Part shown: positions 20,373-38,506 of the stretch, piece after piece
Layout: each line of letters begins with the position of its first letter
Position numbering within the stretch: the first letter of the stretch is position 1
From: a virus
Taxonomy: Duplodnaviria; Caudoviricetes
IMG/VR virus record: IMGVR_UViG_3300020045_018958
Span: 1 to 38,506 of that record
Length of the DNA: 38,506 bases
Reading direction: 5' to 3' (one strand)
Made by a program: the position numbers and the translations under genes
The notes under the pieces: generated by a model
What the model was told of the DNA's origin: nothing
The model's database searches: none
What the model saw: the letters and a program-made list of their open reading frames with translations, nothing else

Positions 20373-20407
20373 TATTCAATCAATTTATTAATCAATATTT
20401 AAAACCA

Positions 20408-20773: not shown

Positions 20774-20793
20774 AAAAACTTATTCAAAATATC

Positions 20794-20829: not shown

Positions 20830-20844
20830 ATGCTTAAAAATACA

Positions 20845-20910
20845 ACATAAATAAATTATACTTTAAATATAAATTATTTGTATTTGATAATTATTATTTA
20901 TTACATTTGT
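20845..20910 (+). promoter_or_regulatory. Operator family A pair plus promoter of scaffold/capsid genes
   Basis: ACATAAAT (20845), ATATAAAT-T-ATTTGTAT (20867), TTATTTATTACATTTGT (20894-20910, identical at 25514). Confidence 0.7.
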
Positions 20911-20935
20911 CATAACTATAACGAAAATCTATATT

Positions 20936-22120
20936 ATGAAATTTGGTATCAACCCCGACATGGAAAATGTTCTTAAAGAACAGGAGAACGTAGAAGTAAA
21001 TTCTGAAACTAAAAACACAGAGGATACCAATGCAGAGGAACAGCATGCAGAAGGTAATACAGAGGATGTAGATAAAGATAAAGGTTCAGAAGCTAATTCT
21101 GGTACTGATGAAAATCAGGAAGGCAATGCTGACAACAACAATACGGATTTAGACAAAACTATTGAGGTTGAACCTTCAGAAGCACAGATTATAAAATTTT
21201 TGAATGACAAAGGCGGAAAGTTTGAAAAACTGGAAGACGTTCTTAAAGAAAATCAAGCTCCTGAAAATCCTTATTCTTCCATTATAGAAGACCCAGAAGT
21301 AAAAAGCTTTTTGGACTTTAAAAAAGATACAGGTCGAGGATTAGCCGATTATATTAAAACACAAGAAAACATTGATGATGTTCCTTTGAAAGATTTGGCT
21401 ATTGCTAAAGCGAAACTAGAACTAGGAAATTTATCTATTGAAGATTTAACTGCTTACATCGAAGAAGAAACTGGTGTGGATTTAGACAGTTCAGATGATT
21501 TGACTGATTTAGAAGTCGCAAAAATCAAAAAATTCACAAAAGATTACAAAGCAAACTTTTTGGCAGAACAGGAGAAATACAAAACTCCTTTGGCAAAAGA
21601 AGAAAATAATACCCAAGGAATCGAAATGATTACTTTGGAAAACGGTGAAAAAGTAGATAAAAAAATCTATGAAGAACACCAAAAAGCACATCAATCTTAT
21701 ATTCAGGACATGAAAGTTGCGGTGGACAGTGTCGCCAAAACCTCCTTAAGTGTTGAGTTTGATAATGCAGGTAAAAAAGAAGTTTTAACTTTTGATTACG
21801 AACATGATGCTGACGATAAAAAGGGAATGGTCTCTTTGTCTGCTGATTTAGATGAAACCGTTAAAAACTTATTTAGAACCGAAAAAGGATTTAATCACGC
21901 AGATTTTGCGAAAGCTGTTTGGCGTTTAGATCCAAAAAACTGGGGAAAAGAAGTTTCTGCAATTGTAAACAAGGCGATTGCCGATACAACGCTTAAGCTT
22001 CAACAGAATGAGAATAATATCGACTTTAATAGAAGTAGAATTCCGGGTAATACAGATGCTACTAAAAAGAAAGATATTTTTCAGGAATCATCCGGATTTG
22101 GGATAAAATTCAACATGTAA
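20936..22120 (+). CDS. Probable capsid scaffolding protein
   Basis: Acidic disordered N-terminus, helical; between portal and capsid; FKKDTGRGLADY. Confidence 0.7.
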   Translation: MKFGINPDMENVLKEQENVEVNSETKNTEDTNAEEQHAEGNTEDVDKDKGSEANSGTDENQEGNADNNNTDLDKTIEVEPSEAQIIKFLNDKGGKFEKLEDVLKENQAPENPYSSIIEDPEVKSFLDFKKDTGRGLADYIKTQENIDDVPLKDLAIAKAKLELGNLSIEDLTAYIEEETGVDLDSSDDLTDLEVAKIKKFTKDYKANFLAEQEKYKTPLAKEENNTQGIEMITLENGEKVDKKIYEEHQKAHQSYIQDMKVAVDSVAKTSLSVEFDNAGKKEVLTFDYEHDADDKKGMVSLSADLDETVKNLFRTEKGFNHADFAKAVWRLDPKNWGKEVSAIVNKAIADTTLKLQQNENNIDFNRSRIPGNTDATKKKDIFQESSGFGIKFNM

Positions 22121-22145
22121 TCTCACAATCTAAATTAAAAAAATC

Positions 22146-23495
22146 ATGGCTTTCGAACTTCCAGTTAACAACTTATTGGGGTCTGCCGTTATTGACAGGC
22201 CAGCCAACACTATTAGATCTGCTGCTAATTTCATCGATCCGTATGATTATGCAATGATCTATCAACCAGAACTTGTTTCTAAATTTCACATGAGATTTGG
22301 AAAAGGCTCTATTTTAGGATTTACCCGTATGACGGGTTCAGAAAGCACGTATGCTTCTGACGAAATCCAACACGGTGAACAAAACCGTTTGCACACTATA
22401 TCTAAAAATGTGGCTGTTGCAGGAAACGTGTTTACTTCCCCAACCGATCACCAATTGCGTGTCGATGATGTAATTATCATATCAGATGGTACTAATGAAG
22501 ATCAAGCAATCGTTACAGCGGTTTCTACTACCAAAGTATTTACTGCATTGAGTGATACTGCTGCTTCATTTGCTTTTGCAGGAAATGTTACTTTGTTTAG
22601 TGGTTCTAACCGTTTTGCAAAAGGAACAGAGAACTTTACAACTGGCTTCCATTGGGATCCTACGATCTACAAGAATAATTCTCATATCATCAAAGGATTT
22701 TATGATATTAATGATTCTGACAGAGCGCACGATACTTGGTTAGATACTCCAGATGGTCCTATGTGGTTTAACTACGAATTAGGTAATCATTCTCGTTATT
22801 TTGATAACCTTGCCGAAATCACTCATATTTTCCACAGAAGAGCTGCTACAGGTGCTGCTTCTACAACTGCAGGAAAAACAAGAGGTATGAAAGGTATTGT
22901 TCAACAAATCGAAGAAAGAGGAAATGTAGCCAATGAGTACATTGAAACTATCGAAGATTTTAATGATATCGCTTACCGTATTAAACAACAAGGAGGTTGT
23001 ACTTCTTACACTGTTTATGCGGATCACATGCAAATGTTCAAATTCAACACTATGTTGGGTGGTGTAAATGCAGGATTTGTAAACGGTGGAAATTACGGTA
23101 TTTTCAACAACAGTAAAGAAATGTCTTTGGCATTAGACTTCCAGTCAGTTACTTTGATGGGAATCACTTTCTTTATTACTGCTTTACGTATTTTGGATGA
23201 TACTCAATTTATGGGTGCAGAACACTTCAAAGCAACTGCTCCGGCATTTGTGATGGTTCCTGCAGGTAATAAATCTATCATGCAAGATGGAGAAACTAAA
23301 GACTCTCCATACTTATCTATTCGTTACCGTAAATCACAATTTACGGATAGAAAGAAACAAGTAAAACTTTTTGGACCTGGATTTACAGATCACAAAAAAG
23401 ATACTATGGAATCTCACTTCACACAAGAACAAACAAATCAGTTGGTTGGTGCGAATGAGTACTTCATTGGAAGACGTAACGCTGCTTACGCCTAA
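22146..23495 (+). CDS. Major capsid protein
   Basis: 449 aa; YQPEL..RFGKGSILGFTRMTGSE..SDEIQHGEQNRLH, GMKGIVQQIEERGN; strong codon bias; followed by terminator. Confidence 0.88.
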   Translation: MAFELPVNNLLGSAVIDRPANTIRSAANFIDPYDYAMIYQPELVSKFHMRFGKGSILGFTRMTGSESTYASDEIQHGEQNRLHTISKNVAVAGNVFTSPTDHQLRVDDVIIISDGTNEDQAIVTAVSTTKVFTALSDTAASFAFAGNVTLFSGSNRFAKGTENFTTGFHWDPTIYKNNSHIIKGFYDINDSDRAHDTWLDTPDGPMWFNYELGNHSRYFDNLAEITHIFHRRAATGAASTTAGKTRGMKGIVQQIEERGNVANEYIETIEDFNDIAYRIKQQGGCTSYTVYADHMQMFKFNTMLGGVNAGFVNGGNYGIFNNSKEMSLALDFQSVTLMGITFFITALRILDDTQFMGAEHFKATAPAFVMVPAGNKSIMQDGETKDSPYLSIRYRKSQFTDRKKQVKLFGPGFTDHKKDTMESHFTQEQTNQLVGANEYFIGRRNAAYA

Positions 23496-23503
23496 AATTA
23501 ATA

Positions 23504-23539
23504 ACAGGAGCGTTGTAAAAAGCGCTCCTGTATTTTTTT
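23504..23539 (+). terminator. Intrinsic terminator after capsid gene
   Basis: ACAGGAGCGTT-GTAA-AAAGCGCTCCTGT-ATTTTTTT. Confidence 0.88.
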
Positions 23540-23557
23540 AACCTAATACTATTAGAT

Positions 23558-24631
23558 ATGAATGTTTACAAATTAAAAAGCGGTAAAACAAGCGGTGCGT
23601 TTCAATTGCCATTAAGAGGAATTTTAGTTTCTAGAGAAATTGAAGGAGAAACTTTCATGAAGGAAATACAGTATGTTCCTGGTGCAAGTTCTTTCTACAA
23701 GGAAGATCACAAGGGCGATGCTAAACCAAGACCTTTATGGTTTGATGATGGAGAAATCAGAGCAAATCCAGACGATAAAGTTCTAAACGAACTATTACAA
23801 AACCACCCGTGGTTCCCTTCAAAATACTTTTTAGTAAATGAAGAAGCAACGGCCAGAGAAGAAATTAACGATTTCGAAAAAATTACCAAAGCTTCCAATT
23901 CAATTATCGAAGAAAAAGATGATTTTAGATTAAAAGCAATGGCAATGATTATTATTTCATTAGATGCTGCTAATTGGGATCCTTTTAAATGCAAAGCAGA
24001 GTTATTGAAGTATGCTAAAAATCATACTGCCACTTTCTTGACAGAATTAGATAAAAAAAATTACGAAGGTAGATTTTTGGCGGCTTTAGCATTTGCCAAA
24101 GGAGTTGTAAAACACAACCAATTCCAAACTGCTGTTTTATGGAATGATGAAAAAGAAGCTGTCATTGTTCGCGTTGCCGAAGGAGAAAGTGGCGTTGACA
24201 AACTAGGTGATTTTTTATCAACTAAAAATGAAAATTCTACTGCTGTTTGTCAAAGAATAGGCGAAAAAGTCGAAGCATTATATGCAAATATATCTTCTGA
24301 AAAAAAGGAAACAACCGCAAAAACTATTCCTGGTAAAACAGAAAAAGAAATTGCGGACGAAGCGATTGAGAAATACAAGGCTTCACTTCCTAAAGTAAAA
24401 ACAGAGGCAGAAATTCGTGAGGAACTATTGGCTGAAATGGCTGGTAATTCAAAAGGAGAAACTTCTTATTCAGGTGCTGAAACTCCAGATACAAAACCAG
24501 TTACTTTTGACAACACTGATTTAGTTCAGGTTCAGGCAAAATACAAAGAGGTTACGGGCGAAGATGCTCCACCAAGATTTAAAAACGATGTTAATTGGCT
24601 AAACGCCAAAATCGTTGAGAAAGGAATTTAA
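23558..24631 (+). CDS. Conserved-looking phage protein after capsid gene (function unknown)
   Basis: 357 aa; LWFDDGEI..LLQNHP; position in head module. Confidence 0.65.
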   Translation: MNVYKLKSGKTSGAFQLPLRGILVSREIEGETFMKEIQYVPGASSFYKEDHKGDAKPRPLWFDDGEIRANPDDKVLNELLQNHPWFPSKYFLVNEEATAREEINDFEKITKASNSIIEEKDDFRLKAMAMIIISLDAANWDPFKCKAELLKYAKNHTATFLTELDKKNYEGRFLAALAFAKGVVKHNQFQTAVLWNDEKEAVIVRVAEGESGVDKLGDFLSTKNENSTAVCQRIGEKVEALYANISSEKKETTAKTIPGKTEKEIADEAIEKYKASLPKVKTEAEIREELLAEMAGNSKGETSYSGAETPDTKPVTFDNTDLVQVQAKYKEVTGEDAPPRFKNDVNWLNAKIVEKGI

Positions 24632-24671
24632 AAAACCATTTTCGTTTGGTTCTGACTTCCCAGTCACGAAG

Positions 24672-24699
24672 AAGCCCCGCTATTGAGTGGGGCTTTTTT
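24672..24699. terminator. Terminator between convergent genes
   Basis: AAGCCCCGC-TATTGA-GTGGGGCTTTTTT. Confidence 0.85.
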
Positions 24700-24702
24700 A
24701 AT

Positions 24703-25122
24703 TTAATCTTCTTCTATAAAATCAGTAATATCAAATTTCCAATTCTCAATTAATCCATTTTCATCTACATTCATTATGATGTAATCTCCATATCCATTTT
24801 CTTTAGGAGACATTGTGTCTGGCACGTAACCATCTTTTCGAGCGATTTCTTTTTCATTTTCATCGTAAACAACATATAGACCATCATCACAAACTTTATA
24901 ATGGATTTCAGCGGTTTTGCCTTGTTCCCAGTTTGTAATAACTCCGGTATCAATATCAATTACTGGAAGCCAATTTTCATCACCTTCAACTCGGCAAGGA
25001 ATCAAATCTCCCACAGTATCTTCTACGCCGTTAACGGTTGCATCTTCCCAATACCTAGCTCCTGCTTTTACGTGAAGCGTTTTTGCTTCCATTTCGACTT
25101 CTTTTTTTACTTTTACTTTCAT
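24703..25122 (-). CDS. Hypothetical phage protein, acidic beta-rich
   Basis: RYWEDATVNG..W.PVIDIDTGVITNW..HYKVCDDG.Y..YVPD..YGDYI. Confidence 0.8.
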   Translation of the reverse strand: MKVKVKKEVEMEAKTLHVKAGARYWEDATVNGVEDTVGDLIPCRVEGDENWLPVIDIDTGVITNWEQGKTAEIHYKVCDDGLYVVYDENEKEIARKDGYVPDTMSPKENGYGDYIIMNVDENGLIENWKFDITDFIEED

Positions 25123-25145
25123 AATTATTTATAGTTTTTGATTTA

Positions 25146-25349
25146 TTATTTTTTAAATATCAATTTCCCATTCAATCCTTCCCGAAGAAAGAAGTATTTA
25201 TCATTGTGTAATTGCTTTAGAATTGGCTTCAAAACATCATATTCTAATTCAGTTTCAATGCTTATATCAGGAATGTAAGTACCGCAACTTCCTCCTGATT
25301 CTTTGTGTTTTTTATCGATGAAGGCTTTTACTTTTTCTGTGTTATCCAT
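25146..25349 (-). CDS. Small putative winged-helix protein (likely start MDNTEK)
   Basis: 67 aa; helix-G-T-helix-turn-helix (VLKPILKQLHNDKY) plus wing hairpin (LREGLNGKLIF), judged by eye. Confidence 0.55.
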   Translation of the reverse strand: MDNTEKVKAFIDKKHKESGGSCGTYIPDISIETELEYDVLKPILKQLHNDKYFFLREGLNGKLIFKK

Positions 25350-25450
25350 AAACAAACTAATGAAACGATGATTAATAAGGATGCCAAAACCAAGCAAAAC
25401 TTAACAAAAAGTTTATAAATCATAGCTGCTCTTTCATCATCGTAATTCAT
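25328..25450 (-). CDS. 40-aa single-TM protein (not in track)
   Basis: MNYDDERAAMIYKLFVKFCLVLASLLIIVSLVCLWITQKK*; downstream of minus-strand TATTTTTG (25467-25474); overlaps next start. Confidence 0.55.
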   Translation of the reverse strand: MNYDDERAAMIYKLFVKFCLVLASLLIIVSLVCLWITQKK

Positions 25451-25466
25451 TGCTAATTGTTTTCAT

Positions 25467-25565
25467 CAAAAATATAAACTATTTATGTTTTAGATATAAA
25501 TAAGTTATACTTTTTATTTATTACATTTGTAATTGATATAAATTATTTCTATTTGAAATATAAAT
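25467..25565. promoter_or_regulatory. Divergent promoters with two operator family A pairs
   Basis: Sites at 25472/25494 and 25536/25558 (22-bp period); TACATTTG (+, 25522-25529); TATTTTTG (-, 25467-25474). Confidence 0.7.
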
Positions 25566-25574
25566 TTATAAGCT

Positions 25575-26276
25575 ATGATGATAGACAGAGTGTATCAAAC
25601 GGTTAAGATGCTGGGCAATACCGAAATCCGTGGAAATTTCAAACCTGCTGATTTTGACAAGGCTTTGTATCTGGTAATTCTGGAGAAGTTTCAGGAGTAT
25701 CCATTTGAATTAAACCGTGCTTTAAATAGGCAAAACCGAGGTTTAATTGGTAATGGTCTTGAAAACGTACCTGATGATATTCTTGAAAAAATGCAACATT
25801 TTTCAGAAGAAGCAATTTTGACTTTTGATACTGGAAAATTTATAATTCCTGACAATTGTAGAGATATTGATGCTGTTATGTATTTGGACAAACACGAAAT
25901 TGTTTTATCTAAAAACACCTCTGAATTCAATCATATAGCCAATTTTAAACATATTGCACCAACTATTAATTATCCTATTGGATTGCGTTCAGGAAACAAA
26001 TTAAAAGTGCTTCCTGCTACAATTATTGACGAAGTGACATTATACTACTTACGCAATCCTTTGATACCAAAATGGACATATGTGACGATCAACGCTACTG
26101 AAATATTCAATCCATCGGCTGGCGATTTTCAAGATATAGACATGCATCCGTCCGAAGAAGATGATATTGTTTCCCGTGTGTGTATCAAAATGGGAATAAA
26201 TCTAAAAGAAGCTGATTTGCAAATATCAGGAACCAATAGCGAAACACAGGAATTTAATCAGCAAAACGCGAACTAA
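25575..26276 (+). CDS. Tail tubular/adaptor (ring) protein
   Basis: IDRVYQTV..N...G...P..F; YLRNPLIPKWTY; DIDMHPSEE; first gene of tail module. Confidence 0.75.
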   Translation: MMIDRVYQTVKMLGNTEIRGNFKPADFDKALYLVILEKFQEYPFELNRALNRQNRGLIGNGLENVPDDILEKMQHFSEEAILTFDTGKFIIPDNCRDIDAVMYLDKHEIVLSKNTSEFNHIANFKHIAPTINYPIGLRSGNKLKVLPATIIDEVTLYYLRNPLIPKWTYVTINATEIFNPSAGDFQDIDMHPSEEDDIVSRVCIKMGINLKEADLQISGTNSETQEFNQQNAN

Positions 26277-27124
26277 TGGAAACACCCGAAGAATATTACG
26301 ATAACGAAGCTTCCCATGGAAGTTATCAATTCGTACCATTAAAAGAAGTTATTGACGGCTTGCTGACCGAAGCAAAACTGGATCCTGATAATTATTTGAA
26401 AAACACCAATCGGGCATTGATTATATATCACGCTAAAAATGGTATTAAAGAATTAACCAAATCAACTGCCAAGGCAACTTTGAAAATCGAAATGACTGTT
26501 GGTGCCAATTCCTGTATTGTAATGCCACAGGATTATGTGGATTATGTGCGTATCTCGGTTGTTGTAGTTGATCATTCTGGAGCAAGAAGACTAGAGGTTT
26601 TGGACATAAACAAAAATATCAACACCGCAACGGGTTATTTACAGGATAATAAATGTGAAATTTTATTTGACAACGATGGGAATATTTTAACAGCCGATGC
26701 TTCTAACGCTTATAACATTCCATATCAAAAATATGAGTTTTGTTCTTCTATTAATGGCAATGCTATGTTGGACACTTCAAAACTTTGTGCTTACGGAGAG
26801 TTTAGTATTGACGAAAACAACGGAAAAATTATATTCAGTTCCAATTTAATTGACAAAGAAGTTGTTGTTGAATACGAATCCGATGGTCTGCAATGGGAAT
26901 CCTTTGGTGAAGGCGATATTAAAGTTCACAAATACATTGAACAGGCACTAAAAGACTGGACGTATTACGCTTGTATTGAAAAAAGAGTAACTGTTTCTAA
27001 TAACGAAAAAGACCGTGCATTAAGAAGATACAAAACCACAAAGCATATTGCCAAAAAAAATAGAGCCGGTTTAGACCTAAATGAAATTTCAAGACAAATG
27101 CGAATCAAAACGAAACACTTGTAA
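26276..27124 (+). CDS. Tail structural (ring) protein
   Basis: MPQDYVDYVRIS, GKIIFSSNL..VVVEYESDGL; coupled to both neighbours. Confidence 0.72.
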   Translation: METPEEYYDNEASHGSYQFVPLKEVIDGLLTEAKLDPDNYLKNTNRALIIYHAKNGIKELTKSTAKATLKIEMTVGANSCIVMPQDYVDYVRISVVVVDHSGARRLEVLDINKNINTATGYLQDNKCEILFDNDGNILTADASNAYNIPYQKYEFCSSINGNAMLDTSKLCAYGEFSIDENNGKIIFSSNLIDKEVVVEYESDGLQWESFGEGDIKVHKYIEQALKDWTYYACIEKRVTVSNNEKDRALRRYKTTKHIAKKNRAGLDLNEISRQMRIKTKHL

Positions 27125-30100
27125 TGAGAAATATCAGAAGAACATTTGTCGCAGGAAGAATGAACAAAGATGTGGATTCTCGTCTATTAAAAGATGGAGA
27201 GTACCGTGAAGCCACCAATGTATTGGTAATGGATTCGGAAGGATCGGATGTTGGCGCTGTTCAAAATTCTTTGGGAAATAAAAAATTGACCAATATTGTT
27301 TTTGGCGCGAACCCTATTTGTTTGGGCGGTTTCCCTGACGAAGCTACTCAAAAATTGTATTGGGTTATCAAATCTGATTTAGGATGCTACTTATTAGAAT
27401 ATGATGTAAGAAACCAAACCGTTGCTAAAGTATTGGAAGATACCAGAGTTGGTGCTGCAAGAGTATTGGATTTTAAAGAAACCCATTTGATTACCGCTAT
27501 GAACAAAATCATAAGCGATAATAGTTTGAAAGATATGATTATTCTTAACGATGATAATATTCAGCCGTTATGTTTCAATATCGAACAAGCAAAAACGTAT
27601 GGACTAAATGGTTTTGACAAAGAAGATATTTTCTTAATCAAAAAACCGCCAAGATATGCACCAGCAACATTTCCTGTTATGGTCAATGGAGCCGGAAATA
27701 ATATTGAAGAAAAGTTTCTGTCTTTCAGTTACCGTTACAAATATTTGAATGGAGAATATTCAGCATTATCTTCCTACTCAAACTATGTTTTTTATCCAAA
27801 CAAATTCAAATTAGACTTTGAGGTTTTGGACAATATCGGTATGATCAATTCCTATAACGCTATTCGTCTGCAAATCAATACTGGCGATAAGCGGGTAACG
27901 GATATTCAAGTTGTTGTAAAAGGAAGTAATTCAAATATGCTTTACATTATTGAAACTTTCAATAAGGAAAATGAAGGTTGGGGCAACAACCAAACCAGAA
28001 GCTTTGTTTTTTCTAATAACAAAATCTACATTGCTCTTCCGGAAAAAGAATTGTATCGTGCTTTTGATAACGTTCCCTTAAAAGCCAAAGCCCAAACTGT
28101 AATTGGTAATAGGCTTGTTATGGGTAACTTTCTTGAAGGCTATGATTTGATTGACAAAAACAATGTAAAGGTAAAACCCAATTATAATTTATCTATTATA
28201 TCCGAAGATTTAGAAGGCAATCCAGTTCCTTTTTCAATATCTAGTACCGGAGGAGTTTCAAATAATTTATTGAATATTGATTTTACAGGACTTATTCTAA
28301 AATCAGGCAGTAAGATTAATTTATTCATTAGTTTAAATAGTATTCATACGCCACCGAGCACTCCTGTTTTGGATTCCAAAAACTACAATGAAAACTTCCA
28401 GTTCTTGTTGACCAAAGATTATGCGGATGCAGCCGAATTGGCGCAGGATGTTGATTTTATATTTTTTGTTACGGATTACATCACCAATTTGTTTTTGGCT
28501 AATTATACTATAACTCCTATTCCAAATTCTGAATTGGAGTCTAACACTCCGTTTTCGATTGATAGTTTTACGGCTACTAGTATTTCTATAAAATCTATTG
28601 CATTATTGTATCGTGTGGATGATACACCGCTGGATGATGGAGATAATCCAACAAACACTCACATCGAAACGGTAAATTGGAGTTTTCAAAATACTAGCAA
28701 CATATTATTTTATGAAATTGGATCCATTTCAACCGTAAAATCAAATAGAGGCTATGAGGTTGGATTGGTTTATTTGGATGAATTCAATAGATCAACTACG
28801 GTATTGACACAGTTGAACAACACTATTTTTATTCCTCACGATCTTGCTTTGTCAAAAAATAAAATAAAAATAAGTTTGTTTCATAATCCACCTGCTTTTG
28901 CAGACAGGTATAAAATTTCAATCAAACAGCCAAAATTAGCCTATCATATTATTTATGCCACGACTTTTTATATCGACGGATTATTTCGTTGGATAAAATT
29001 AGAGAACAACAACAAAGACAAGGTAAAACAAGGCGATATTCTCATTTTTAAATCCGATACGGATGGTTTTGTACCTACACTTACCAAGGTAAAAGTATTA
29101 GAAATTAAAGACCAGCCAAAAGAATTTATAGATGGAAATGTTGACGTAAACGGAAACGAAATAAAAGAACTTGCTGGTTATTACATGAAGATAAAACCGC
29201 CTTCAGGAATTTCTATGAATTATATTGATAACGGATTTATAGAAAAAAAAGGAAGTAAAAACAGCAAAGGCGACGACTTTAACATGTATATTGGTCCGTT
29301 TTCAGAAAAGAACACAACTACTGGTTTGTATGAAGACATTCCAATTACACAAGGGTCTAGAATAGATTTAACCCTACACAATGGAAGGAAATATGATGGA
29401 CAATGGAAGTATCTTGATTTTCCAAAAACCTATTATGCAAGTGCGGATTATGCTGATTTTCAATCATGGTATAACACAGAAGTAAATAACAATACAAGTC
29501 CTTTTATTCATCCAACAAATGGTGTTGTTAGAGGTGTACTTTCCTCTCGCTTTAATGTTTTTTCGCCTAGCACAACAGGCGCATTGTATCTTCAAATTCA
29601 TAATGAATTTAACGGAAACGGTCAACGTACATCCTACTTAAATGGTTCTGTAAAAATAATGGCTGCCAATGGTTTAATCATTCTTGAAACCGAAGAAAAA
29701 AAATCAATTGAAGAAGATATTTATTATGAAACGGCTCAAACATTTGATATTGTAAATGGATTGCACCAAGGCAATCTGCAAAATCAATCTAGCGGAATTC
29801 CCGCTGTGATTGATTTGGATTTTTTCAATTGTTTCTGCCAAGGTAATGGTGCCGAAAGTTATATTATTAAAGACGCTTTTAACAAAGACTATTTGAATAT
29901 TGATTTGCGTCCTTCTGCAGTTTCTATTGAAAAATACAAAGCCGTAAGAAGGTATGCTGATTTGACCTACGGTGATGCCTATATTGAAAGCTCCAATATT
30001 AACGGATTGAATGTTTTTAATACATCAACTGGTAATTTTAAAGAATTGGATAAACAATATGGCAGCATTCAAAAATTGCATAGCCGTGATAATGATATTC

Positions 30101-32094
30101 TGGTGTTGAAAGAATACAAAGCATCTAAAGTGATGTTTGAAAAAGGATTGATTTACAATAGCGATGGAAGTTCGAATGTAAGTACAATTGATAAAATTCT
30201 TGGTCCTGAATTAACTTATCTTGGAGATAACGGAATTGGCAAAAACCCCGAAAGTTTTTCCGAAAATGATTACCAGATTTATTATGCCAATACCAAACAA
30301 GGAACTATTTCAAGATTGTCAATAGATGGTGTTACTGATATTATTTATGGAATGGTAGATTGGTTTCGTGACATTTTTAGATTGCAGCCCAACTCTAAAA
30401 AACTAGGCGGTTTTGACCCTTACACTAAACAATACATGATTTCTATAGGTAACGAACCTGAAAAATTATTGTTTCTTAAATGTGGAAACGAAATTATAAA
30501 AGACAATCAAACCGGTTCTTTTAGCTATGAATTACAGTTAAATGATTTGAGTGGTGAAGTTATACTGAATTACAATATTACTTTTGGAAATGCCACCATC
30601 GTTGCTTTATTTGACGGTATTAGCAATGTGGTTTCAAATGTAACTGGCGTAGGCAATATTACTTTTGACAGAACAAGCCTTGTAGAGAACATTGTTTTGG
30701 TAACTATTACCGCTGTAAGTGAGACGATTAGTTATCAAATTGGTAACGTTTGTCCAATTGGTTCAGAGTTAAAAATTGTAAGCGTTATCGTCAATGATGC
30801 TACTGATATTGGAAACAACAGCGTAAACAGATTTCAATGGGGGTCCTCCTTTTTGTACAATACCGATGATGTGTTTAACAATGCTCCTGTAAGTAAATTT
30901 TTGACAGAAACAGGAATAGAAGGCGTTGGCAAATTCCCTTTGAATAATTCGGTATTTACCGTTCAGGCATTTAAGGATATGGTAACCTCTGGCGAGTTTC
31001 TTGTAAGTGAGTGCAACCGTATTGGTTATTTGATTTCAGATACTGTTTATACACAATCGGATATTAATGCCCTTTTATCAGCAGCTACTTATTTGGATAT
31101 AACCGAAACTAATGAAGTGGGGTATTACAAAATAAGTTCAGGAAGTTTTCTTTTTGCAAGAACAGAGCCTGATCAACTTTTGTATTTAATTTGGGATTAC
31201 ACCAACAGAAAACCTGTCTTGATTAATGATTTTGGCAGTACTTCTGTAGGAGGAAATACAACAATAACCGTTTTGTCTAATGACGATGTGATTGATGATT
31301 CGGTAGTTGTTACAATTGCAACCGCTCCTTCTTTCGGAACGGCTATCGTTAATTTAGACAAAACTATTACTTACACGCACGATGGTTCTGATAATTTTGA
31401 CGATACCATACTATATGAAGTTTCCAATGGTGTTTGTAGTTCAACTGCCAGTATTTTTATTGGAATCGGGTCACCTTGTTCTGGATCAATTTCTGCTTCT
31501 GGAGGTGCTGGAATTTATGAAGCCGTTATTAATGTAGGTACTGCTTTGGGACTAACAGGAATTAAATATGATGCACAAGGAGTTCCGGATAGATTTGAAA
31601 TTTATTACGACAATGTAAAAGTTGCAGATAGCAAATTCGTTGGTGATGGAATAACTCCAGGACCTCCAACTTCTTACAGCGGATTGTTAGGACTAAAATC
31701 AGGACTTCACATTTTTAATTATGATGGGGCAACCTTTGTGGACACTGGTAATATCGAGCCTGATTTTACTGTAATACAAAGCGATATAGCTGATAATGTT
31801 ACTGAAGCCATTGACGGAAACGGAACGCTGTTGTTTAATAAAACTACAGCAACTCCAACAACTATAAAAATTAGAGCCTACGGAGTTGTTGGTGGCACTG
31901 CATGGACTTTTGGAGGCATCTGTCCAATCGCAAGTGCTGATGTGGTTCCAGGAGCAGAAAAATTTGTGTTTGGATTCTTTACAGATGCGAATAAAGCATT
32001 GCAAACAAAATCAATGAAATTTTATCTAGGAACTTCGCCTGTGAAATTCTACACGAACGCTAAAGGAGATACTGATTTTAGCAGTTTTGCATAG
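27124..32094 (+). CDS. Tail stabilisation (nozzle/muzzle-like) protein with C-terminal Ig-like domains
   Basis: GRMNKDVDSRLL..GEYREATNV, FSYRYKY..EYSALS, GNRLVMGNF, YGSIQKL, GIGKNPESF; Big_9-like VLSNDD..PSFGT..ITYTH. Confidence 0.82.
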   Translation: MRNIRRTFVAGRMNKDVDSRLLKDGEYREATNVLVMDSEGSDVGAVQNSLGNKKLTNIVFGANPICLGGFPDEATQKLYWVIKSDLGCYLLEYDVRNQTVAKVLEDTRVGAARVLDFKETHLITAMNKIISDNSLKDMIILNDDNIQPLCFNIEQAKTYGLNGFDKEDIFLIKKPPRYAPATFPVMVNGAGNNIEEKFLSFSYRYKYLNGEYSALSSYSNYVFYPNKFKLDFEVLDNIGMINSYNAIRLQINTGDKRVTDIQVVVKGSNSNMLYIIETFNKENEGWGNNQTRSFVFSNNKIYIALPEKELYRAFDNVPLKAKAQTVIGNRLVMGNFLEGYDLIDKNNVKVKPNYNLSIISEDLEGNPVPFSISSTGGVSNNLLNIDFTGLILKSGSKINLFISLNSIHTPPSTPVLDSKNYNENFQFLLTKDYADAAELAQDVDFIFFVTDYITNLFLANYTITPIPNSELESNTPFSIDSFTATSISIKSIALLYRVDDTPLDDGDNPTNTHIETVNWSFQNTSNILFYEIGSISTVKSNRGYEVGLVYLDEFNRSTTVLTQLNNTIFIPHDLALSKNKIKISLFHNPPAFADRYKISIKQPKLAYHIIYATTFYIDGLFRWIKLENNNKDKVKQGDILIFKSDTDGFVPTLTKVKVLEIKDQPKEFIDGNVDVNGNEIKELAGYYMKIKPPSGISMNYIDNGFIEKKGSKNSKGDDFNMYIGPFSEKNTTTGLYEDIPITQGSRIDLTLHNGRKYDGQWKYLDFPKTYYASADYADFQSWYNTEVNNNTSPFIHPTNGVVRGVLSSRFNVFSPSTTGALYLQIHNEFNGNGQRTSYLNGSVKIMAANGLIILETEEKKSIEEDIYYETAQTFDIVNGLHQGNLQNQSSGIPAVIDLDFFNCFCQGNGAESYIIKDAFNKDYLNIDLRPSAVSIEKYKAVRRYADLTYGDAYIESSNINGLNVFNTSTGNFKELDKQYGSIQKLHSRDNDILVLKEYKASKVMFEKGLIYNSDGSSNVSTIDKILGPELTYLGDNGIGKNPESFSENDYQIYYANTKQGTISRLSIDGVTDIIYGMVDWFRDIFRLQPNSKKLGGFDPYTKQYMISIGNEPEKLLFLKCGNEIIKDNQTGSFSYELQLNDLSGEVILNYNITFGNATIVALFDGISNVVSNVTGVGNITFDRTSLVENIVLVTITAVSETISYQIGNVCPIGSELKIVSVIVNDATDIGNNSVNRFQWGSSFLYNTDDVFNNAPVSKFLTETGIEGVGKFPLNNSVFTVQAFKDMVTSGEFLVSECNRIGYLISDTVYTQSDINALLSAATYLDITETNEVGYYKISSGSFLFARTEPDQLLYLIWDYTNRKPVLINDFGSTSVGGNTTITVLSNDDVIDDSVVVTIATAPSFGTAIVNLDKTITYTHDGSDNFDDTILYEVSNGVCSSTASIFIGIGSPCSGSISASGGAGIYEAVINVGTALGLTGIKYDAQGVPDRFEIYYDNVKVADSKFVGDGITPGPPTSYSGLLGLKSGLHIFNYDGATFVDTGNIEPDFTVIQSDIADNVTEAIDGNGTLLFNKTTATPTTIKIRAYGVVGGTAWTFGGICPIASADVVPGAEKFVFGFFTDANKALQTKSMKFYLGTSPVKFYTNAKGDTDFSSFA

Positions 32095-32190: not shown

Positions 32191-32829
32191 ATGGCACAAC
32201 ATACTGTATCGCATTCAGAAAAATCAGAGGGATGGACTTCATTTTGGGGTTTTATTCCTGATTTGATGCTGAAATTAAACAACCGTTTTTATTCCATTAA
32301 AAATGGACAACTGTACTTGCATAATGACGAATCTGTTCCTCGTAATAATTTTTACGGAGTGCAGCATACTTCCAAGATTGACACCGTTTTCAATGAAGAT
32401 AATGGTCAGGATAAAATTTTCAAGACCATGGTTTTGGAAAGCAACAAGCCGTGGGATGTAGCTGTGGAAACTAATATGGCCAACAGCACTATTAAAAAAG
32501 AAGAATTCAACCAAAGAGAAAGCCATCAGTTTGCCTACTTACGTAAAAATGAAAATGCTAATGATTTGCACGGGAATACGGCTAATGGTATTGGAGTAAT
32601 TCTTAATGTGACAACCGTAGGAAGCACTAGAACAATAACCTACAGTTCTATTTCAAACTACATAAGTACTGGAGATAAATTATATCAACTCAACGGAAAT
32701 GAGCAAGAATTTCTTGGAATAATTGACACTATAGATTTTAGAACAGGAAAGATTACGGTGCAAATTAATTCTGTAAATCCTCCAGTTGCCAGAAAATTTA
32801 ATTCAAAATTTAACTTAAAATTCAACTAA
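32191..32829 (+). CDS. Tail structural protein ending in an F-x3-F-x3-F motif
   Basis: SEKSEGWTSF..PD.M..LNNRFYS..RNNFYG..KIFKTM.LES; ends RKFNSKFNLKFN. Confidence 0.7.
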   Translation: MAQHTVSHSEKSEGWTSFWGFIPDLMLKLNNRFYSIKNGQLYLHNDESVPRNNFYGVQHTSKIDTVFNEDNGQDKIFKTMVLESNKPWDVAVETNMANSTIKKEEFNQRESHQFAYLRKNENANDLHGNTANGIGVILNVTTVGSTRTITYSSISNYISTGDKLYQLNGNEQEFLGIIDTIDFRTGKITVQINSVNPPVARKFNSKFNLKFN

Positions 32830-32830: not shown

Positions 32831-34144
32831 ATGACTAGACCAGAATTAGATAACTCGATAAATACCGTTTTTGACGATAATAGACCAAATGAAAGTTTGA
32901 ATCCATCATTAGCTGGAGCAGAATTAAAAAAAGTAGCAGATTATGTTGATCAAGAAAATAATAAAAAAGTAGATAAAGTTGACGGTAAAAGTTTAATTTT
33001 AAATACTGAAATTGCTAGATTATTAACTATTACGGCTATATTCACAACTGCTTTAAAAACCGTTTATGATAATGCAGTAACTTGGATTTCAACGAACGGT
33101 GCCAATGTATTGACTCACATAAACAATTTATCTACGAATATTACAACCGACGGCACTAGTGATGTAAAATATCCAAGTGTAAAAGCTGTAAAAACTTATG
33201 TTGACGCAAATACAATAGATACAGCATTTGTAGCAAAAACTTATACTTCAACAATGTCTATACCATACGATACAGACAGTCCAAATATAGAAATAACTTT
33301 ATCAGGTAATTTAAACTTAACAGTAACTGGTACTTCAAATGGTGATTTTGGAATAGTTAACATCTATTCAAGCGCATCAGAAACAATTATTGTAAATGGA
33401 TTAAAAGGATTATCGCTCACTGGAAATGGTTCTTCTCAAATGATACCTATTTCTTTTGTACATAGTACAGATGGAATAAGATGGTATGATGAAAGAGAAT
33501 CTATAGGAAGCGATATTGACACAGCAAATCTTGCAGAGTCAGTTGGTACAACATTGTGGCATCCAAACATTGCAACTTCAACAGGAACGGTTACAAGTTC
33601 AGGAACTAATTGGACAGGAACAGGAACGGCACTAACTGGACAGATGGTTGGAGCAAAGATTTTCATAGGTAGTGAATCTTTGATTATTGACACGATAAAT
33701 ACTGGAGCGCAAACATTTACAACTACCGAAGCATTACCAACAGATGTGACTAATTCTGCTTTTCAAATTAAATTAGTTGCGCAAAAAAATGTTGTTGGAA
33801 CGATTAGATGGTATGACGCTAATGAGGGATCTGAAAGAGGTACTTTTGAATCAGGAGGCGATTTTGTTTTTAATGGATTAAGAATGAGGTCTAACAATAC
33901 TATAGTGTCTAGTGCTTCACTATTTATTCAAGAAAATTCAGAAATTCATGGTAACAGATTTAGTTCTCCTTTTTTAGCTCATAAAAACACATTTTTAGCT
34001 AGTCAATTACCTATACTATCAACAACAGACAGGTATATTGCTTCGGTGTCAGATGCCGATACTCCTACTTACCATGGAATATTAAACGGAGGAGGAAATG
34101 TAAATTGTATTGTTTATTGGAATGGACTTAACTGGATAACATAA
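32831..34144 (+). CDS. Tail fibre protein
   Basis: T/S/G-rich; KVDKVDGKSL (similar to QLKVAGKSL in the 8902 fibre), YPSVKAVKTYVD. Confidence 0.72.
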   Translation: MTRPELDNSINTVFDDNRPNESLNPSLAGAELKKVADYVDQENNKKVDKVDGKSLILNTEIARLLTITAIFTTALKTVYDNAVTWISTNGANVLTHINNLSTNITTDGTSDVKYPSVKAVKTYVDANTIDTAFVAKTYTSTMSIPYDTDSPNIEITLSGNLNLTVTGTSNGDFGIVNIYSSASETIIVNGLKGLSLTGNGSSQMIPISFVHSTDGIRWYDERESIGSDIDTANLAESVGTTLWHPNIATSTGTVTSSGTNWTGTGTALTGQMVGAKIFIGSESLIIDTINTGAQTFTTTEALPTDVTNSAFQIKLVAQKNVVGTIRWYDANEGSERGTFESGGDFVFNGLRMRSNNTIVSSASLFIQENSEIHGNRFSSPFLAHKNTFLASQLPILSTTDRYIASVSDADTPTYHGILNGGGNVNCIVYWNGLNWIT

Positions 34145-36309
34145 TGAGAAATATATTTTGTCAAATGCTTAAAAGAAGAAGAATTAGGTCAACACCTATT
34201 ATTCCTCCAATTCCTGTTGTACAAAATCAATTGGAAGAAATAGCTTATTTTAATTCATATTTGCTACCATTATCGCAAAAAGCCAATCTGCAAAGTGCTT
34301 TAAATACCTATGGTTCTGTAAGACTGGAGCAAGGTGATTATTCTGGTTATCCGATAACCATAACAAGCAATCAAAGATTGTATGGGCATAACACTTTAAA
34401 TCCAATATCATTAATAACCGTAGCTCAAGGAAGTACTAATGTACATTTAGAAAGCTTAAATATTGATGGTGCTGGACAAGGAATACAATTTGAAGCAGGC
34501 AATCCAATAATAAATTGTACTATCAAAACTACAAAATACGGAACAATAACTGCTATAGGTGCTAAATTAGAAAATAATCTATTTATTAATATATTGAGTA
34601 GAATTCATTTTGATTTTAGTGCTACAGGTTATTACAGAAATAATAAATTCATTAAACAACAATCAGGAATAGTTTCACCTATAGTTTTAATTAAAGGAAA
34701 TAGTACAACTCCCAGTAGTGGAAATGTGCATTTTTGGACAAATTTATTAACCCCTTGGGGTGACGGGATGGTTCTTGATAATTTAGGAGATACTACATTT
34801 ATAGGAGTTGACGCTGAAGGTTGGAATGGTACAGGTTCTAGTGTTGGTAACAAAGCAGCTGTATACGCAAGAAACATGAGTAATTTTAAATTAGCTGAAG
34901 TTGGCGGTGCTAATGGTTATTCACCAGTTAAAACACCAGGTTTTGATATTCAGGCAAATAATTTATTATTAATACATCCCGCAATTGGAAGTGATGCTAT
35001 AAGTTTAGTTTCTCCAAATGCAAATGTTGTAAATGTTGGAGCTTATATGAATTATGCTAGGACTGCAGGAACCCAAACAGGTTATGATATTACTGCTCAA
35101 CGTTATCATTATCCTGATAATACTCAAGATGTCTTATATAATGGTGTAGTTCAAAGCACAATAACAGATCCAAGTACTGTGTCGACTATTAAAAATGCTT
35201 TTTTGGGCACAAAACGTACTCCTTGGGCAAAACCTAATTGGGAAACATTACCAGACCCTTTAGGAACTAATTGGAGAGCCGAAAGAGTAGGTAAATCTGA
35301 TAGTAGGTCTTATATTCAAAATTTAATAGATACTAATAATATTGCTGAATTACCAGAGGGAATATTTTATATTAGTTCAACATTATATGTTAGTGGTCAG
35401 AATCAAGGAATAATTGGCTCTGGTACAGGCAAAACTGTTATATGTGGTTTGACAGATGATTTTCCGCTAATAACTATGGTTTCTTTTGTTAACGGAATAA
35501 GTTATCATTTAGCCAATTTAACTCTTCAGGGCGGTAGTGCGGGTCAATTTTTTCCAGAGAATTATGTTGGGAATGCCTATATAAATACAAGATTTGTAGT
35601 GTTCAGAGACCAACAAATAGGTATTCACTATTATAAAATGGGTGGAACAGATAACTGCTTTTTTGATAATATTAGTTTTGTAAATTGTGGTGTTGGTATC
35701 ATGCAAGAACCAAAAATGATTACTGATAATGTTGATATTTCTGGATATATTGATAAAGTTGTTTATTATAAAAATCAATATATAAATTGTGGTATTGGTA
35801 CATCAAACAAAGCTATGAGAGGGAATAACTTAAATTCTTGGGTAGATTGTAAATACGATGGAAACCAAACAGCTTATGTTAATGGTAGTAATAACTTTTC
35901 AATAATGGCTAATTGTGATATAAGAAATACCAGTGGTGCGGATTATACTTTAGATGTAGGAGATTTATCACTATATAGTTGTAATTTTTATAATAACACT
36001 CCAAATGTATCTACTGCAAAAGCTGTGAATCTATATGCAGAGGGTTGTGAGTTTTTAGACAGTGTTCGATTTGCACAATCTGTTCCAAATAATGATAATG
36101 GTTTACTAGTATTAAATTCAATTATAAACGGCGATGCTGTAGCAAGAAATAGAACAGACGGTAAAAAAGATAATCTATTATTTATAAACACTACACTAAC
36201 TTCACACAGTGGTTTAAATAAATTTATGACTAAAGTAACTAACGGAACACCAACAGTAGTTATAAACTCCGAGCCAGACCCTTACCCTCAATTTTTAGTA
36301 ACGCAATAG
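34144..36309 (+). CDS. Tailspike/depolymerase with pectate-lyase-like beta-helix
   Basis: LQSALN..VRLEQGDY and IQNLID..AELPEGIFYISSTL..GIIGSGTGKTVI beta-helix starts; Asn/Cys ladders. Confidence 0.75.
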   Translation: MRNIFCQMLKRRRIRSTPIIPPIPVVQNQLEEIAYFNSYLLPLSQKANLQSALNTYGSVRLEQGDYSGYPITITSNQRLYGHNTLNPISLITVAQGSTNVHLESLNIDGAGQGIQFEAGNPIINCTIKTTKYGTITAIGAKLENNLFINILSRIHFDFSATGYYRNNKFIKQQSGIVSPIVLIKGNSTTPSSGNVHFWTNLLTPWGDGMVLDNLGDTTFIGVDAEGWNGTGSSVGNKAAVYARNMSNFKLAEVGGANGYSPVKTPGFDIQANNLLLIHPAIGSDAISLVSPNANVVNVGAYMNYARTAGTQTGYDITAQRYHYPDNTQDVLYNGVVQSTITDPSTVSTIKNAFLGTKRTPWAKPNWETLPDPLGTNWRAERVGKSDSRSYIQNLIDTNNIAELPEGIFYISSTLYVSGQNQGIIGSGTGKTVICGLTDDFPLITMVSFVNGISYHLANLTLQGGSAGQFFPENYVGNAYINTRFVVFRDQQIGIHYYKMGGTDNCFFDNISFVNCGVGIMQEPKMITDNVDISGYIDKVVYYKNQYINCGIGTSNKAMRGNNLNSWVDCKYDGNQTAYVNGSNNFSIMANCDIRNTSGADYTLDVGDLSLYSCNFYNNTPNVSTAKAVNLYAEGCEFLDSVRFAQSVPNNDNGLLVLNSIINGDAVARNRTDGKKDNLLFINTTLTSHSGLNKFMTKVTNGTPTVVINSEPDPYPQFLVTQ

Positions 36310-36315
36310 ACAAAA

Positions 36316-36339
36316 AAAACCACTCATTTGAGTGGTTTT
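36316..36339. terminator. Intrinsic terminator (potentially bidirectional)
   Basis: AAAACCACTCA-TT-TGAGTGGTTTT. Confidence 0.8.
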
Positions 36340-36483
36340 ACAATAAATTCGAGAAAAATTACTGACTACTTCATAATTTAAAATTTAAGATTTTTACTGT
36401 TTTTAGGAAATGTATGTTCTTTTCTTTGAACTACAAATTTAGTAAATAATTTCAAATTCATATACAAAACACAAAATAGTTTC

Positions 36484-36528: not shown

Positions 36529-38506
36529 ATGCGAGGATTGAGTGAAGACATAGAATTTGCCATTAAAGATTCCCTACAAGGGATGGAGCTTAACGTTGAA
36601 ATATCAAAGGTCAGCGATGAGAAATTGTCTGCGCTTGTTAGATCTAGAATAGAATCTTTCATTGCTATCAAAGAACTTTTAGTTTCTTGGCAAAACAGTC
36701 CAAACGCTCCAAGCCACGAAAAATTAAGAAGCTACATCATTGAACTTGTATCAATAGGGAATAACTCGATTGATGTATTGCGTAAAGCCTTAAAAAAAGG
36801 GATAAATTTTGAAGATTTAGATGCCGAGAAATACGGAACTGCAATTCGTTCAAAACCTCTTTTACTTAAAGCAATCACGGATATTAATGCCGGAAACATC
36901 GAATTACAAAACCAAATCGATGCTGACAAATTTGACCTGCAAGAACGGGAATTCAAGAGAGGTTATCCTGAAAAGTTTGCCAACCAAGAGTTTTATCCAT
37001 TAAAAAACTATCATAAAGAATGGTATGATGCCGAAACCGATAGTGTAATGATTTGTCCTTTGGGAACAAAAGGCGAAATCATTACCCTTGATGGACTAAA
37101 TATAATGCTTCCAAAAAAGCCAAAACGTACCGAGATACTTTTTGAAAAATACGCTCCTACTGAACAATATTGGAGAAGACAAGAAATGCCGAAAGGTTTG
37201 ACTCCTGATACCGAAGAAGCCTTTGCGGATTATATAGTAAAGGAATACAAAAGACGTAGAGAAGGGGTTTGGTTTATGAATAACGGACAAGCGGTTTACA
37301 TTACTCCCGAACATTATATGGGGTTGCAATGGAACCAAATGGCAGATACAGGAGGTTATAAAGACTTTCGTATGGCACAGGCGAATATGTATTATTTCGC
37401 CAAAGCGTGTTTGATTGATAAAAGAAGTATTGGAATGTTCTTCACCAAAGGTCGTCGTACCGGATTTACCGAAATGGCAATAGACCATATTGTAGAATTA
37501 TCGACTACAACCAAAAATCAATACATAGGAATCACTTCTAAATCAGATATGGATGCGACAGTAGTATTTCGAAAATACTCTTATGTAATTCAGAATTTAC
37601 CTTTCTTTTTTCAACCGGTTGTAAAAGGAAAAATTGATGATGTAAAGAAAATGGTGTTTGGTAAGCCATCTGATAATTCAAGGGCAGCTAAAAAAACAAA
37701 AGACACTTCGACGTCGGATTACCTAAATACTACAGTCGATTATAGAGCCACAGCGATACTATCTTATGACTCTGTAAAGCTAAACTTTTATTTTGGGGAT
37801 GAAGCCTCAAAATGGGAGCATTTAAGTTATTTAGAGCATTGGTCAAACATCGAACCTACAATGATTCAAGGTGGTAGAGTTGTTGGTAAAGCATTTATTG
37901 GCTCTACAGTAAACCCTATAGCAAAAGGAGGGGAAGATTTTAAAAAAATGGATATTGGCTCAAATGTTTCACGAAGAAATGATAACGGAAGCACCACTAC
38001 AGGGCTATATGCTTATTTCCTACCTGCACATCATAACGCAGAGGATTACACTGACAAATATGGGGTTTGCCATACTATTGTAGAAAAAGGAAAAAGTTTT
38101 GTAAACGCACTAGGAGAGTTAAAATTAATAGGTGCTTTACAGTTCTATGAAAATGAGTTTAAATCAAAAAGGTTATTGGGCGAAAAGAATTATTGGAATG
38201 CTCGACGTTTAAATCCTACTACCAAGGCAGATGCTTTTCGTGACGAGTCAGTTTCTACCATATTTGACCAACAAAAAATTAACGACCAATTAGATTTCAA
38301 CGAAACCTACGATATAAGAAAAACGCTCACAAGAGGAAATTTTTCGTGGGAAGATAACATTCCTGATTCAAGAGTTATTTGGACCCCAACCGAAAAAGGA
38401 AGGTTCTTGGTTGCTTGGATTCCACCTGCTGATATGCAAAACAAATGGGAAATCAAACGCAACGAGTTTGGTCACGTTTCAAAACATCCTGGCAATGATG
38501 ATTTAG
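36529..38506 (+). CDS. terL: Second terminase large subunit with N-terminal TerS-like repeats (partial, runs off window; not in track)
   Basis: 659 codons with no stop, translated by hand; KGRRTGFT, YFGDEASK, IGSTVN, GLYAYFLPA, AFRDES, RGNFSWE align colinearly with 15698-17905. Confidence 0.92.
   Translation, partial: MRGLSEDIEFAIKDSLQGMELNVEISKVSDEKLSALVRSRIESFIAIKELLVSWQNSPNAPSHEKLRSYIIELVSIGNNSIDVLRKALKKGINFEDLDAEKYGTAIRSKPLLLKAITDINAGNIELQNQIDADKFDLQEREFKRGYPEKFANQEFYPLKNYHKEWYDAETDSVMICPLGTKGEIITLDGLNIMLPKKPKRTEILFEKYAPTEQYWRRQEMPKGLTPDTEEAFADYIVKEYKRRREGVWFMNNGQAVYITPEHYMGLQWNQMADTGGYKDFRMAQANMYYFAKACLIDKRSIGMFFTKGRRTGFTEMAIDHIVELSTTTKNQYIGITSKSDMDATVVFRKYSYVIQNLPFFFQPVVKGKIDDVKKMVFGKPSDNSRAAKKTKDTSTSDYLNTTVDYRATAILSYDSVKLNFYFGDEASKWEHLSYLEHWSNIEPTMIQGGRVVGKAFIGSTVNPIAKGGEDFKKMDIGSNVSRRNDNGSTTTGLYAYFLPAHHNAEDYTDKYGVCHTIVEKGKSFVNALGELKLIGALQFYENEFKSKRLLGEKNYWNARRLNPTTKADAFRDESVSTIFDQQKINDQLDFNETYDIRKTLTRGNFSWEDNIPDSRVIWTPTEKGRFLVAWIPPADMQNKWEIKRNEFGHVSKHPGNDDL

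What the first reader, a model, noticed from the sequence alone, without database searches (positions are those of the whole stretch)
36529..38506. Two terminase large subunits in one phage region
Seen: an unlisted ORF of at least 659 codons is a colinear but divergent paralogue of TerL at 15698 (YDAETDSVMI/YDASIDTVII, KGRRTGFT/KNRRIGAS, GDEASK/LDESGK, STVN/STVN, FRDES/FRDES, RGNFSWE/RGNFSWE). Both keep their ATPase motifs, so neither looks decayed. Known: tailed phages normally encode one TerL. Inference: either two motors with divided roles (initiation/cutting versus translocation, hetero-oligomer, packaging of a different DNA), or the start of a second morphogenesis module. The two copies sit behind different regulatory motifs.
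Basis: partly seen in the sequence, partly recalled or inferred. Interest (0 to 1): 0.85.

Follow-up and report, generated by a model that had tools for sequence, protein, structure and literature searches.

The report
Two phages joined in one contig
Both DNA-packaging (terminase) genes are really in the sequence, but they come from two different Flavobacterium phage lineages that elsewhere each carry one terminase beside their own portal, so this contig is a patchwork of two phages, most likely an assembly mis-join, and likely not a phage with two cooperating motors.

Summary
Observation confirmed. An ORF from 36529 (659 codons, open at the contig end) is a terminase large subunit (TerL), 34% identical to the TerL at 15698, with ATPase motifs intact; its nuclease domain lies beyond the contig. 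The two are not a duplicated pair. TerL-A belongs to a Pachyviridae-like lineage, TerL-B to an Elemovirus-like lineage (882-aa relatives, 92% identical). In 57 of 57 related loci each TerL type sits beside a portal of its own type. All 18 near-complete related IMG/VR records and all 87 matching cultured-phage records carry one full TerL. The window is a three-block mosaic: B-type early genes and GroEL (1 to ~8.9 kb), an A-type lysis/head/tail block (~8.9 to ~33 kb) without its last genes, then B-type cargo, promoter and TerL-B. Both switches fall in modules the lineages share. Best reading: at least one assembly mis-join (0.6); a real recent recombinant (0.3); a stable two-terminase phage (0.07). 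No available read set spans the switch. Side findings: a recurrent gene cassette that splits the muzzle gene, and a probable small-terminase-like fusion on B-type TerL.

The parts
36529..38505 (+). TerL-B: large terminase of the Elemovirus-like (B) lineage, 659 of an expected ~882 aa; helical N-terminal extension (1-~150), ATPase domain; nuclease beyond the contig end
36484..36524 (+). B-type promoter-like motif ahead of TerL-B; nucleotide matches to B-type relatives begin here
   Evidence: D8
36310..36340 (+). terminator-like hairpin after the cargo genes
   Evidence: read directly from the sequence; not scanned with a tool
34144..36309 (+). 721-aa cargo gene; homologues lie before TerL-B in B-type L005 (47%) and after the short muzzle gene in A-type L138 (50% over 112 aa)
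32831..34144 (+). 437-aa fibre-like cargo gene; residues 1-49 match the A-type muzzle cassette (L156), 128-436 match the B-type cassette of L005; a widely shared repeat at 33161-33211 lies between
32191..32829 (+). N-part of the muzzle C-terminal gene in a naturally recurring short form; the separate ~60-aa C-part that follows the cargo in L156 is not in the window
15698..17905 (+). TerL-A: complete 735-aa large terminase of the Pachyviridae-like (A) lineage
15407..15694 (+). 95-aa helical-hairpin protein in the small-terminase position (function not shown)
17909..32094 (+). A-type portal, scaffold-like protein, probable major capsid protein, two ring-like proteins and muzzle N-part (the names scaffold, capsid and ring are inferred from position and size; PHROGs says portal, virion structural protein or unknown)
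8899..15410 (+). fibre, holin, endolysin and GroES-like genes, closest to A-type G036 (79-99%) except the endolysin (B-type, 80%)
8832..8872 (+). first copy of the B-type promoter-like motif; left switch from B-type to A-type sequence lies at about 8872-9022
1626..8814 (.). B-type left arm: small genes, GroEL (6563-8110, minus strand) and an HNH gene

Best explanation
The contig is a mosaic of two related Flavobacterium podophage lineages, most likely produced by at least one assembly mis-join in genes that both lineages share, and TerL-B is the first gene of an ordinary second head module whose own portal would follow just past the contig end. Shown: the two TerL genes belong to separate clades, each paired elsewhere only with its own portal; the window reads B-type / A-type / B-type; the switches lie at the promoter-fibre boundary (~8.87-9.02 kb) and inside a mobile cargo cassette (32.98-36.48 kb). 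Inferred: in its own phage each TerL is a normal one-per-genome packaging motor (ATPase plus nuclease docking on its cognate portal); TerL-B likely carries a fused, duplicated small-terminase-like hairpin in place of a separate small gene; a co-occurring A phage and B phage shared near-identical lysis/fibre and cargo DNA, which let the assembly path cross between them. One of the two switches (more likely the left) may be an older natural module exchange.
For: One full TerL per genome: 87 places in 87 cultured-phage records; 41 of 43 IMG/VR records with one match, one with an extra weak 41-position hit, one a 4.8-kb inverted rearrangement of a single B genome; 28 of 31 further records one match, 3 none; all 18 records at least 90% complete have one; 7 bacterial genomes with a match have one each. 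TerL and portal trees split the same 57 loci into 28 A and 29 B with no cross-pairing; TerL-A and the window's portal fall in A, TerL-B in B. Left arm: 12 of 12 ORFs with a hit are best in B; middle block: 17 of 18 best in A. GroEL in 12 of 15 B records (6 of 6 near-complete), 0 of 19 close A records. GroEL-to-TerL-B spacing 28.4 kb against 6.4-12.8 kb in 7 B genomes, so a whole molecule would be 16-22 kb over the 60-76 kb of complete B records. The A block lacks the muzzle C-part and the acetyltransferase-like and large virion genes that follow it in 5 of 5 A genomes inspected plus L156. 8 of 10 window proteins looked up are singletons seen on this contig only. Two sibling IMG/VR records show inversion artefacts (G036, G043). 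Several unrelated contigs share 33161-33211 and diverge on both sides, as at a repeat hub.
Against: No junction is shown to be false: no raw reads were available. Every local adjacency exists in nature: short muzzle gene followed by this cargo start (contig in run X1 covering 32498-32842 with 25 differences; L156; L138), cargo gene followed by TerL-B (L005), GroEL-HNH-promoter (L182). The domain order of the 437-aa cargo gene also occurs in independent, diverged proteins (P0271, P0274, P0293). All ORFs across the switches are intact and in frame. Known A and B relatives share only about 14 nt at the left switch, too short for a graph assembler to cross unless the true parents share more. Two switches must be explained. 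Related loci were found by searching with the two TerL genes and short exact words, so a rare two-TerL lineage could be missed.
Confidence: 0.6

Rival explanations
1. A real but recent recombinant: a B-type phage took in about 24 kb of an A-type phage or prophage by crossovers in the fibre/lysis module and in the cargo cassette. TerL-A and the incomplete A module are passengers; TerL-B and its own portal still package DNA. Likely short-lived because oversize.
For: Clean, in-frame switches at a promoter boundary and in a cassette known to shuffle; B synteny kept on both sides; the lineages exchange lysis genes (endolysin 80% to B); A-type phages are often proviruses in Flavobacterium, so co-residence is plausible.
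Against: 16-22 kb more DNA than B relatives; no decay in a block that could not build a virion; never seen twice; an unpackageable molecule would rarely be abundant enough to assemble.
Confidence: 0.3
2. A viable hybrid lineage keeps both enzymes: B-type early arm, A-type virion, and TerL-B captured as cargo in the muzzle cassette. TerL-B with its fused hairpins would recognise or cut B-type genome ends while TerL-A pumps through portal-A; or the phage keeps two full head modules.
For: The muzzle cassette naturally accepts foreign genes and the gene resumes after them (L156); this layout would add only a few kb; both TerL genes look intact; the contig ends before the test.
Against: 0 of 57 loci pair a TerL with the other lineage's portal; no record with both types; TerL-B is followed by a B portal in every relative long enough to show one; the A block has its own gene in the small-terminase position.
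Confidence: 0.07
3. Within-genome duplication of terL followed by divergence and division of labour.
For: Colinear homologues with conserved motifs.
Against: Each copy is far closer to single-copy TerLs of other phages (78% and 92%) than to the other copy (34%), and they sit in separate deep clades.
Confidence: 0.01

Closest known systems
Elemovirus (Flavobacterium phage vB_FspP_elemoA_7-9A, NC_055852)
   Same: Single ~876-aa TerL with the same N-terminal extension, 49% identical to TerL-B over all 659 aa; GroEL on the minus strand upstream; portal directly after TerL.
   Different: No A-type block between GroEL and TerL (6.4 kb against 28.4 kb); closer B relatives are uncultured IMG/VR records (83-92%).
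Pachyviridae (Cellulophaga phages phi46:3, phi18:3, phi19:3, phi13:2)
   Same: TerL 56% identical to TerL-A; same order GroES-like, small gene, TerL, portal, capsid region, muzzle genes.
   Different: One TerL; unsplit 241-aa muzzle C gene followed by further virion genes; no GroEL hit in the 42 kb of phi46:3 fetched.
Large terminases of the T4 gp17 / Sf6 gp2 / HK97 kind
   Same: Model of the full-length 92% relative P0125 matches T4 gp17 (E 1.4e-12), T7, Sf6, HK97, D6E and P74-26 terminases.
   Different: 8-14% sequence identity; extra four-helix N-terminal extension.
Staphylococcus prophage vB_G30_01 (PMC11512304; one passage seen)
   Same: Annotated with 'two terminase large subunits'.
   Different: They are adjacent ORFs 41 and 42, which I infer to be a split gene; here there are two genes of different lineages 21 kb apart.

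Membership tests
Large terminase (TerL) | N-terminal ATPase with Walker A / Walker B / coupling motifs | tested here: met
   Motifs present in both copies; phrog_6681; fold match of P0125 to T4 gp17 ATPase. Motif naming is recalled knowledge.
Large terminase (TerL) | C-terminal RNase H-like nuclease with acidic catalytic residues | tested here: inconclusive
   Present in TerL-A and in the relative P0125 (D665, D847 invariant); for the window's TerL-B the contig ends at residue 659.
Large terminase (TerL) | Adjacent cognate portal | tested here: inconclusive
   Met for TerL-A (17909); for TerL-B beyond the contig; B relatives have one.
Stable two-TerL packaging system (proposed) | Co-occurrence of both TerL types in independent genomes | tested here: not met
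   0 of 87 cultured records, 0 of 74 IMG/VR records, 0 of 7 bacterial genomes with a match.
Stable two-TerL packaging system (proposed) | Physical linkage of both genes on one molecule | not testable with these tools
   Only fragmented contigs of five public runs could be laid; none spans the region.
Genus Elemovirus (B blocks) | High genome-wide nucleotide similarity to type genomes (about 70%, recalled criterion) | tested here: not met
   No blastn match of at least 60 nt and 75% to the 26 kb of elemoA fetched; TerL 49%, GroEL 39% protein identity. Works like, is not, an Elemovirus.
Family Pachyviridae (A block) | Shared core protein clusters and whole-genome clade (PMC8776804, passages seen) | tested here: inconclusive
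   TerL, portal and structural genes 44-56% to phi46:3 and same clade in both trees; the family's clustering was not rerun and the contig is a mosaic fragment.
Small terminase (TerS) fused to TerL-B | Homology of TerL-B residues 1-150 to the small gene before A-type TerL | tested here: inconclusive
   Profile match weak (E 0.024, probability 2%; internal repeat E 0.008); predicted helix 27 / loop 9 / helix 34 against helix 24 / loop 9 / helix 33; one tblastn alignment runs from TerL-B residue 70 through the small gene of L064.
Small terminase (TerS) fused to TerL-B | Structural match of the small protein to a solved TerS | tested here: inconclusive
   Only generic helical hairpins, best Z 8.9, no TerS listed.

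The most novel reading that the evidence does not exclude
A real hybrid phage with a B-type early arm and an A-type virion has captured the B-type TerS-TerL fusion as cargo inside its split muzzle gene and uses two terminases from different lineages, one to recognise and cut the genome and one to pump it through the portal; or it keeps two head modules.
Probability: 0.07. Interest if true: 0.8.

Novelty: not a real feature. Interest (0 to 1): 0.22.

Why it matters
As most likely read, it matters little: it is a warning that mosaic or mis-joined viral contigs can mimic duplicated hallmark genes, and that a second TerL on a contig is a useful chimera flag. If reads proved the molecule real, it would be a snapshot of a 24-kb exchange between two phage lineages whose TerL and portal never cross-pair in 57 loci, and in the rare best case a natural split of cutting and pumping between two terminases. 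The by-products (a recurrent cassette splitting the muzzle gene; a probable TerS-like duplication fused to TerL in the whole B lineage) are real and may deserve their own look.

Tried and rejected
Codon-usage classifier for A versus B genes: did not separate even the training genomes in leave-one-out; unused. My regular expression for the B promoter motif missed known copies; that motif rests. Direct BLASTP of TerL-B residues 1-160 against the 95-aa gene: nothing. Pfam and solved-sequence searches of TerL: nothing useful. Fold searches of the small protein: no TerS among the listed rows. The short muzzle gene was first taken as the scar of a mis-join; rejected, because 12 of 119 other listed clusters have the same short form and a contig in X1 spans it. 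Run X1 holds 92-100% pieces across the A block and little over TerL-B, but contig holes at depth 2-5 prove nothing. In X3 a depth value fits an ~85-nt piece of the 4830-nt cargo contig lying in TerL-B (hand arithmetic), but the piece is not listed, so it is not counted. Scans for close relatives of the cargo genes and of the 14101 gene found no second hybrid. G043, the only other record with several TerL pieces, is a rearranged single B genome. Literature searches gave no description of two full TerL genes in these phages; the library lacks most subscription papers, and no supplements were read. Earlier scan notes: none for this genome or these sequences. No complex prediction was run.

Full report
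Observation. The window is a complete 38,506-base virus record. The ORF at 36529 runs open to the end (659 codons), is 34% identical and colinear with the 735-aa ORF at 15698, and both match the PHROG terminase family 6681. A model of the full-length 92%-identical relative P0125 (pLDDT 86.8) matches T4 gp17, T7, Sf6, HK97, D6E and P74-26 terminases. The quoted motifs are all there and differences to close relatives are mostly synonymous. The contig stops six residues before the nuclease begins, so only the ATPase part is seen.

Two lineages, not a duplication. Among cultured phages TerL-B is nearest Elemovirus (49%) and TerL-A nearest Pachyviridae (56%); each search found 87 records with 87 places. 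IMG/VR scans gave 45 loci for TerL-B (56-92%) and 43 for TerL-A (40-78%), with no contig in both lists. Of 91 loci examined, 83 had a long TerL, 70 a long portal and 57 distinct ones had both; TerL and portal trees split these into the same 28 A and 29 B (one 5'-truncated B locus, L017, was mislabelled A by my length rule and falls in B in both trees). Split support is 1.0 on the A side of both trees; the B-side value after midpoint rooting is 0.47 for TerL and 0.999 for portal. Whole-record searches found one match in 41 of 43 records, one record with an extra weak hit and one fragment with three pieces that is an inverted rearrangement of one B genome; one match in 28 of 31 more, none in 3; one each in 7 bacterial genomes from two samples of 401. 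All 18 records at least 90% complete have one full TerL.

The window is a B/A/B mosaic. Against about 1 Mb each of A and B relatives: of 17 ORFs between the two HNH genes, 12 have a hit and all 12 are best in B (two of them overlap on opposite strands); of 21 ORFs from 8845 to 32829, 18 have a hit and 17 are best in A, the endolysin being B-like; the last genes are B-best. GroEL is in 12 of 15 B records and 0 of 19 close A records; 7 of 14 more distant records have a remote GroEL. A 30-nt motif occurs five times, only between 14799 and 25536, and in 6 of 9 A genomes but 1 of 11 B genomes, weakly. The 41-nt motif at 8832 and 36484 is seen after GroEL and before TerL in B genomes. The GroEL-to-TerL-B distance is 28.4 kb against 6.4-12.8 kb in seven B genomes.

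Where the switches lie. Left: B-type similarity ends at 8871-8883, the fibre gene from 8899 is 80% like A-type G036 and 29-37% like B fibres; the known relatives share only about 14 nt of promoter core there. Right: the muzzle C gene lacks its conserved last ~45 residues, which first looked like a scar. It is not: 12 of 119 other listed clusters are cut at the same place, and in a Flavobacterium genome contig (L156, G044, one TerL) the short gene is followed by a cargo gene whose start matches the window's 32831 gene, then by a separate 63-aa ORF carrying the missing tail, then by the usual downstream virion genes. So A phages have a cargo cassette inside this gene. B phages have a cargo site just before TerL (L005, L007, L011, L014, L035). 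The two sites share genes: homologues of the 34144 gene lie in A-type L138 and B-type L005, and the 32831 gene is A-cassette-like at its start and L005-like from residue 128, around a repeat shared by many contigs. The window enters the cassette from the A side and leaves on the B side; the muzzle tail is nowhere in the window. The exact crossover in 32980-36484 cannot be fixed.

Artefact or real recombinant. For a mis-join: single occurrence (8 of 10 proteins looked up are singletons on this contig), an implied excess of 16-22 kb over B genomes of 60-76 kb, an intact-looking but incomplete A module, switches in shared sequence, and inversion artefacts in two sibling records. For a real molecule: intact in-frame genes, natural counterparts for each local adjacency, short known homology at the left switch, and frequent A-type proviruses that make co-residence plausible. 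The five public runs found hold at most a tenth of the words and only as short contigs, so linkage could not be tested. I put 0.6 on at least one mis-join, 0.3 on a recent real recombinant, 0.07 on a stable hybrid using both enzymes.

How each enzyme likely works. From established knowledge of terminases and the strict TerL-portal pairing, each is the single packaging motor of its own phage. A-type phages have a small helical-hairpin gene before TerL; B-type TerL instead begins with four helices that look like two such hairpins. The sequence support is weak and the small protein matches no solved TerS, so a TerS-TerL fusion is a likely but unproven reading.

Literature. Nine searches found no account of two full TerL genes in these phages. 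I saw passages of PMC8776804 (Pachyviridae definition; integrases in some members) and one passage of PMC11512304 (two adjacent ORFs named TerL); other papers only as listings; no supplements. Verdict: real genes, most likely an unreal combination; interest 0.22.

Noticed in passing
window 32191-36309; L156:10001-11350; L138:2-1794; P0002, P0004-P0009, P0013, P0015, P0016, P0027, P0048: A recurrent cassette splits the muzzle C gene of Pachyviridae-like phages: the N-part gains a stereotyped ending (e.g. KFNSKFNLKFN), cargo genes follow, and the last ~60 residues restart as a separate ORF (seen in full only in L156). 12 of 119 other listed clusters, down to 54% identity, have the short form. 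Possibly a variable slot for tail-decorating proteins.
   Followed up: partly
window 36529-36980 and all B-type TerL (A1): Conserved ~150-aa four-helix N-terminal extension resembling two copies of the hairpin protein encoded before A-type TerL; probable fused small terminase.
   Followed up: partly
L076 (G036) 7490-12931 versus window 13124-18613: Holin 99%, GroES-like 92%, small gene 97%, portal 98% identical to the window, yet TerL only 60%: TerL alleles are swapped between near-identical flanks within the A lineage (G036 TerL is 82-86% to L079 and G044).
   Followed up: partly
L019:21013-21129: A ~38-codon stretch resembling TerL residues 600-633 sits between the second ring gene and the muzzle gene of a B-type genome; possible relic of a terL fragment.
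   Followed up: no
   Followed up: no
window 6192-8110 and 14829-15410: The B arm encodes GroEL with a neighbouring small minus-strand gene, and both lineages keep a GroES-like gene right before the terminase; close A-type phages have the latter without GroEL.
   Followed up: partly
window 14794-14830, 20324-20360, 20839-20874, 25467-25503, 25531-25567: A-lineage motif with two ATATAAAT boxes 22 nt apart before late operons; candidate binding site of a phage late regulator.
   Followed up: partly
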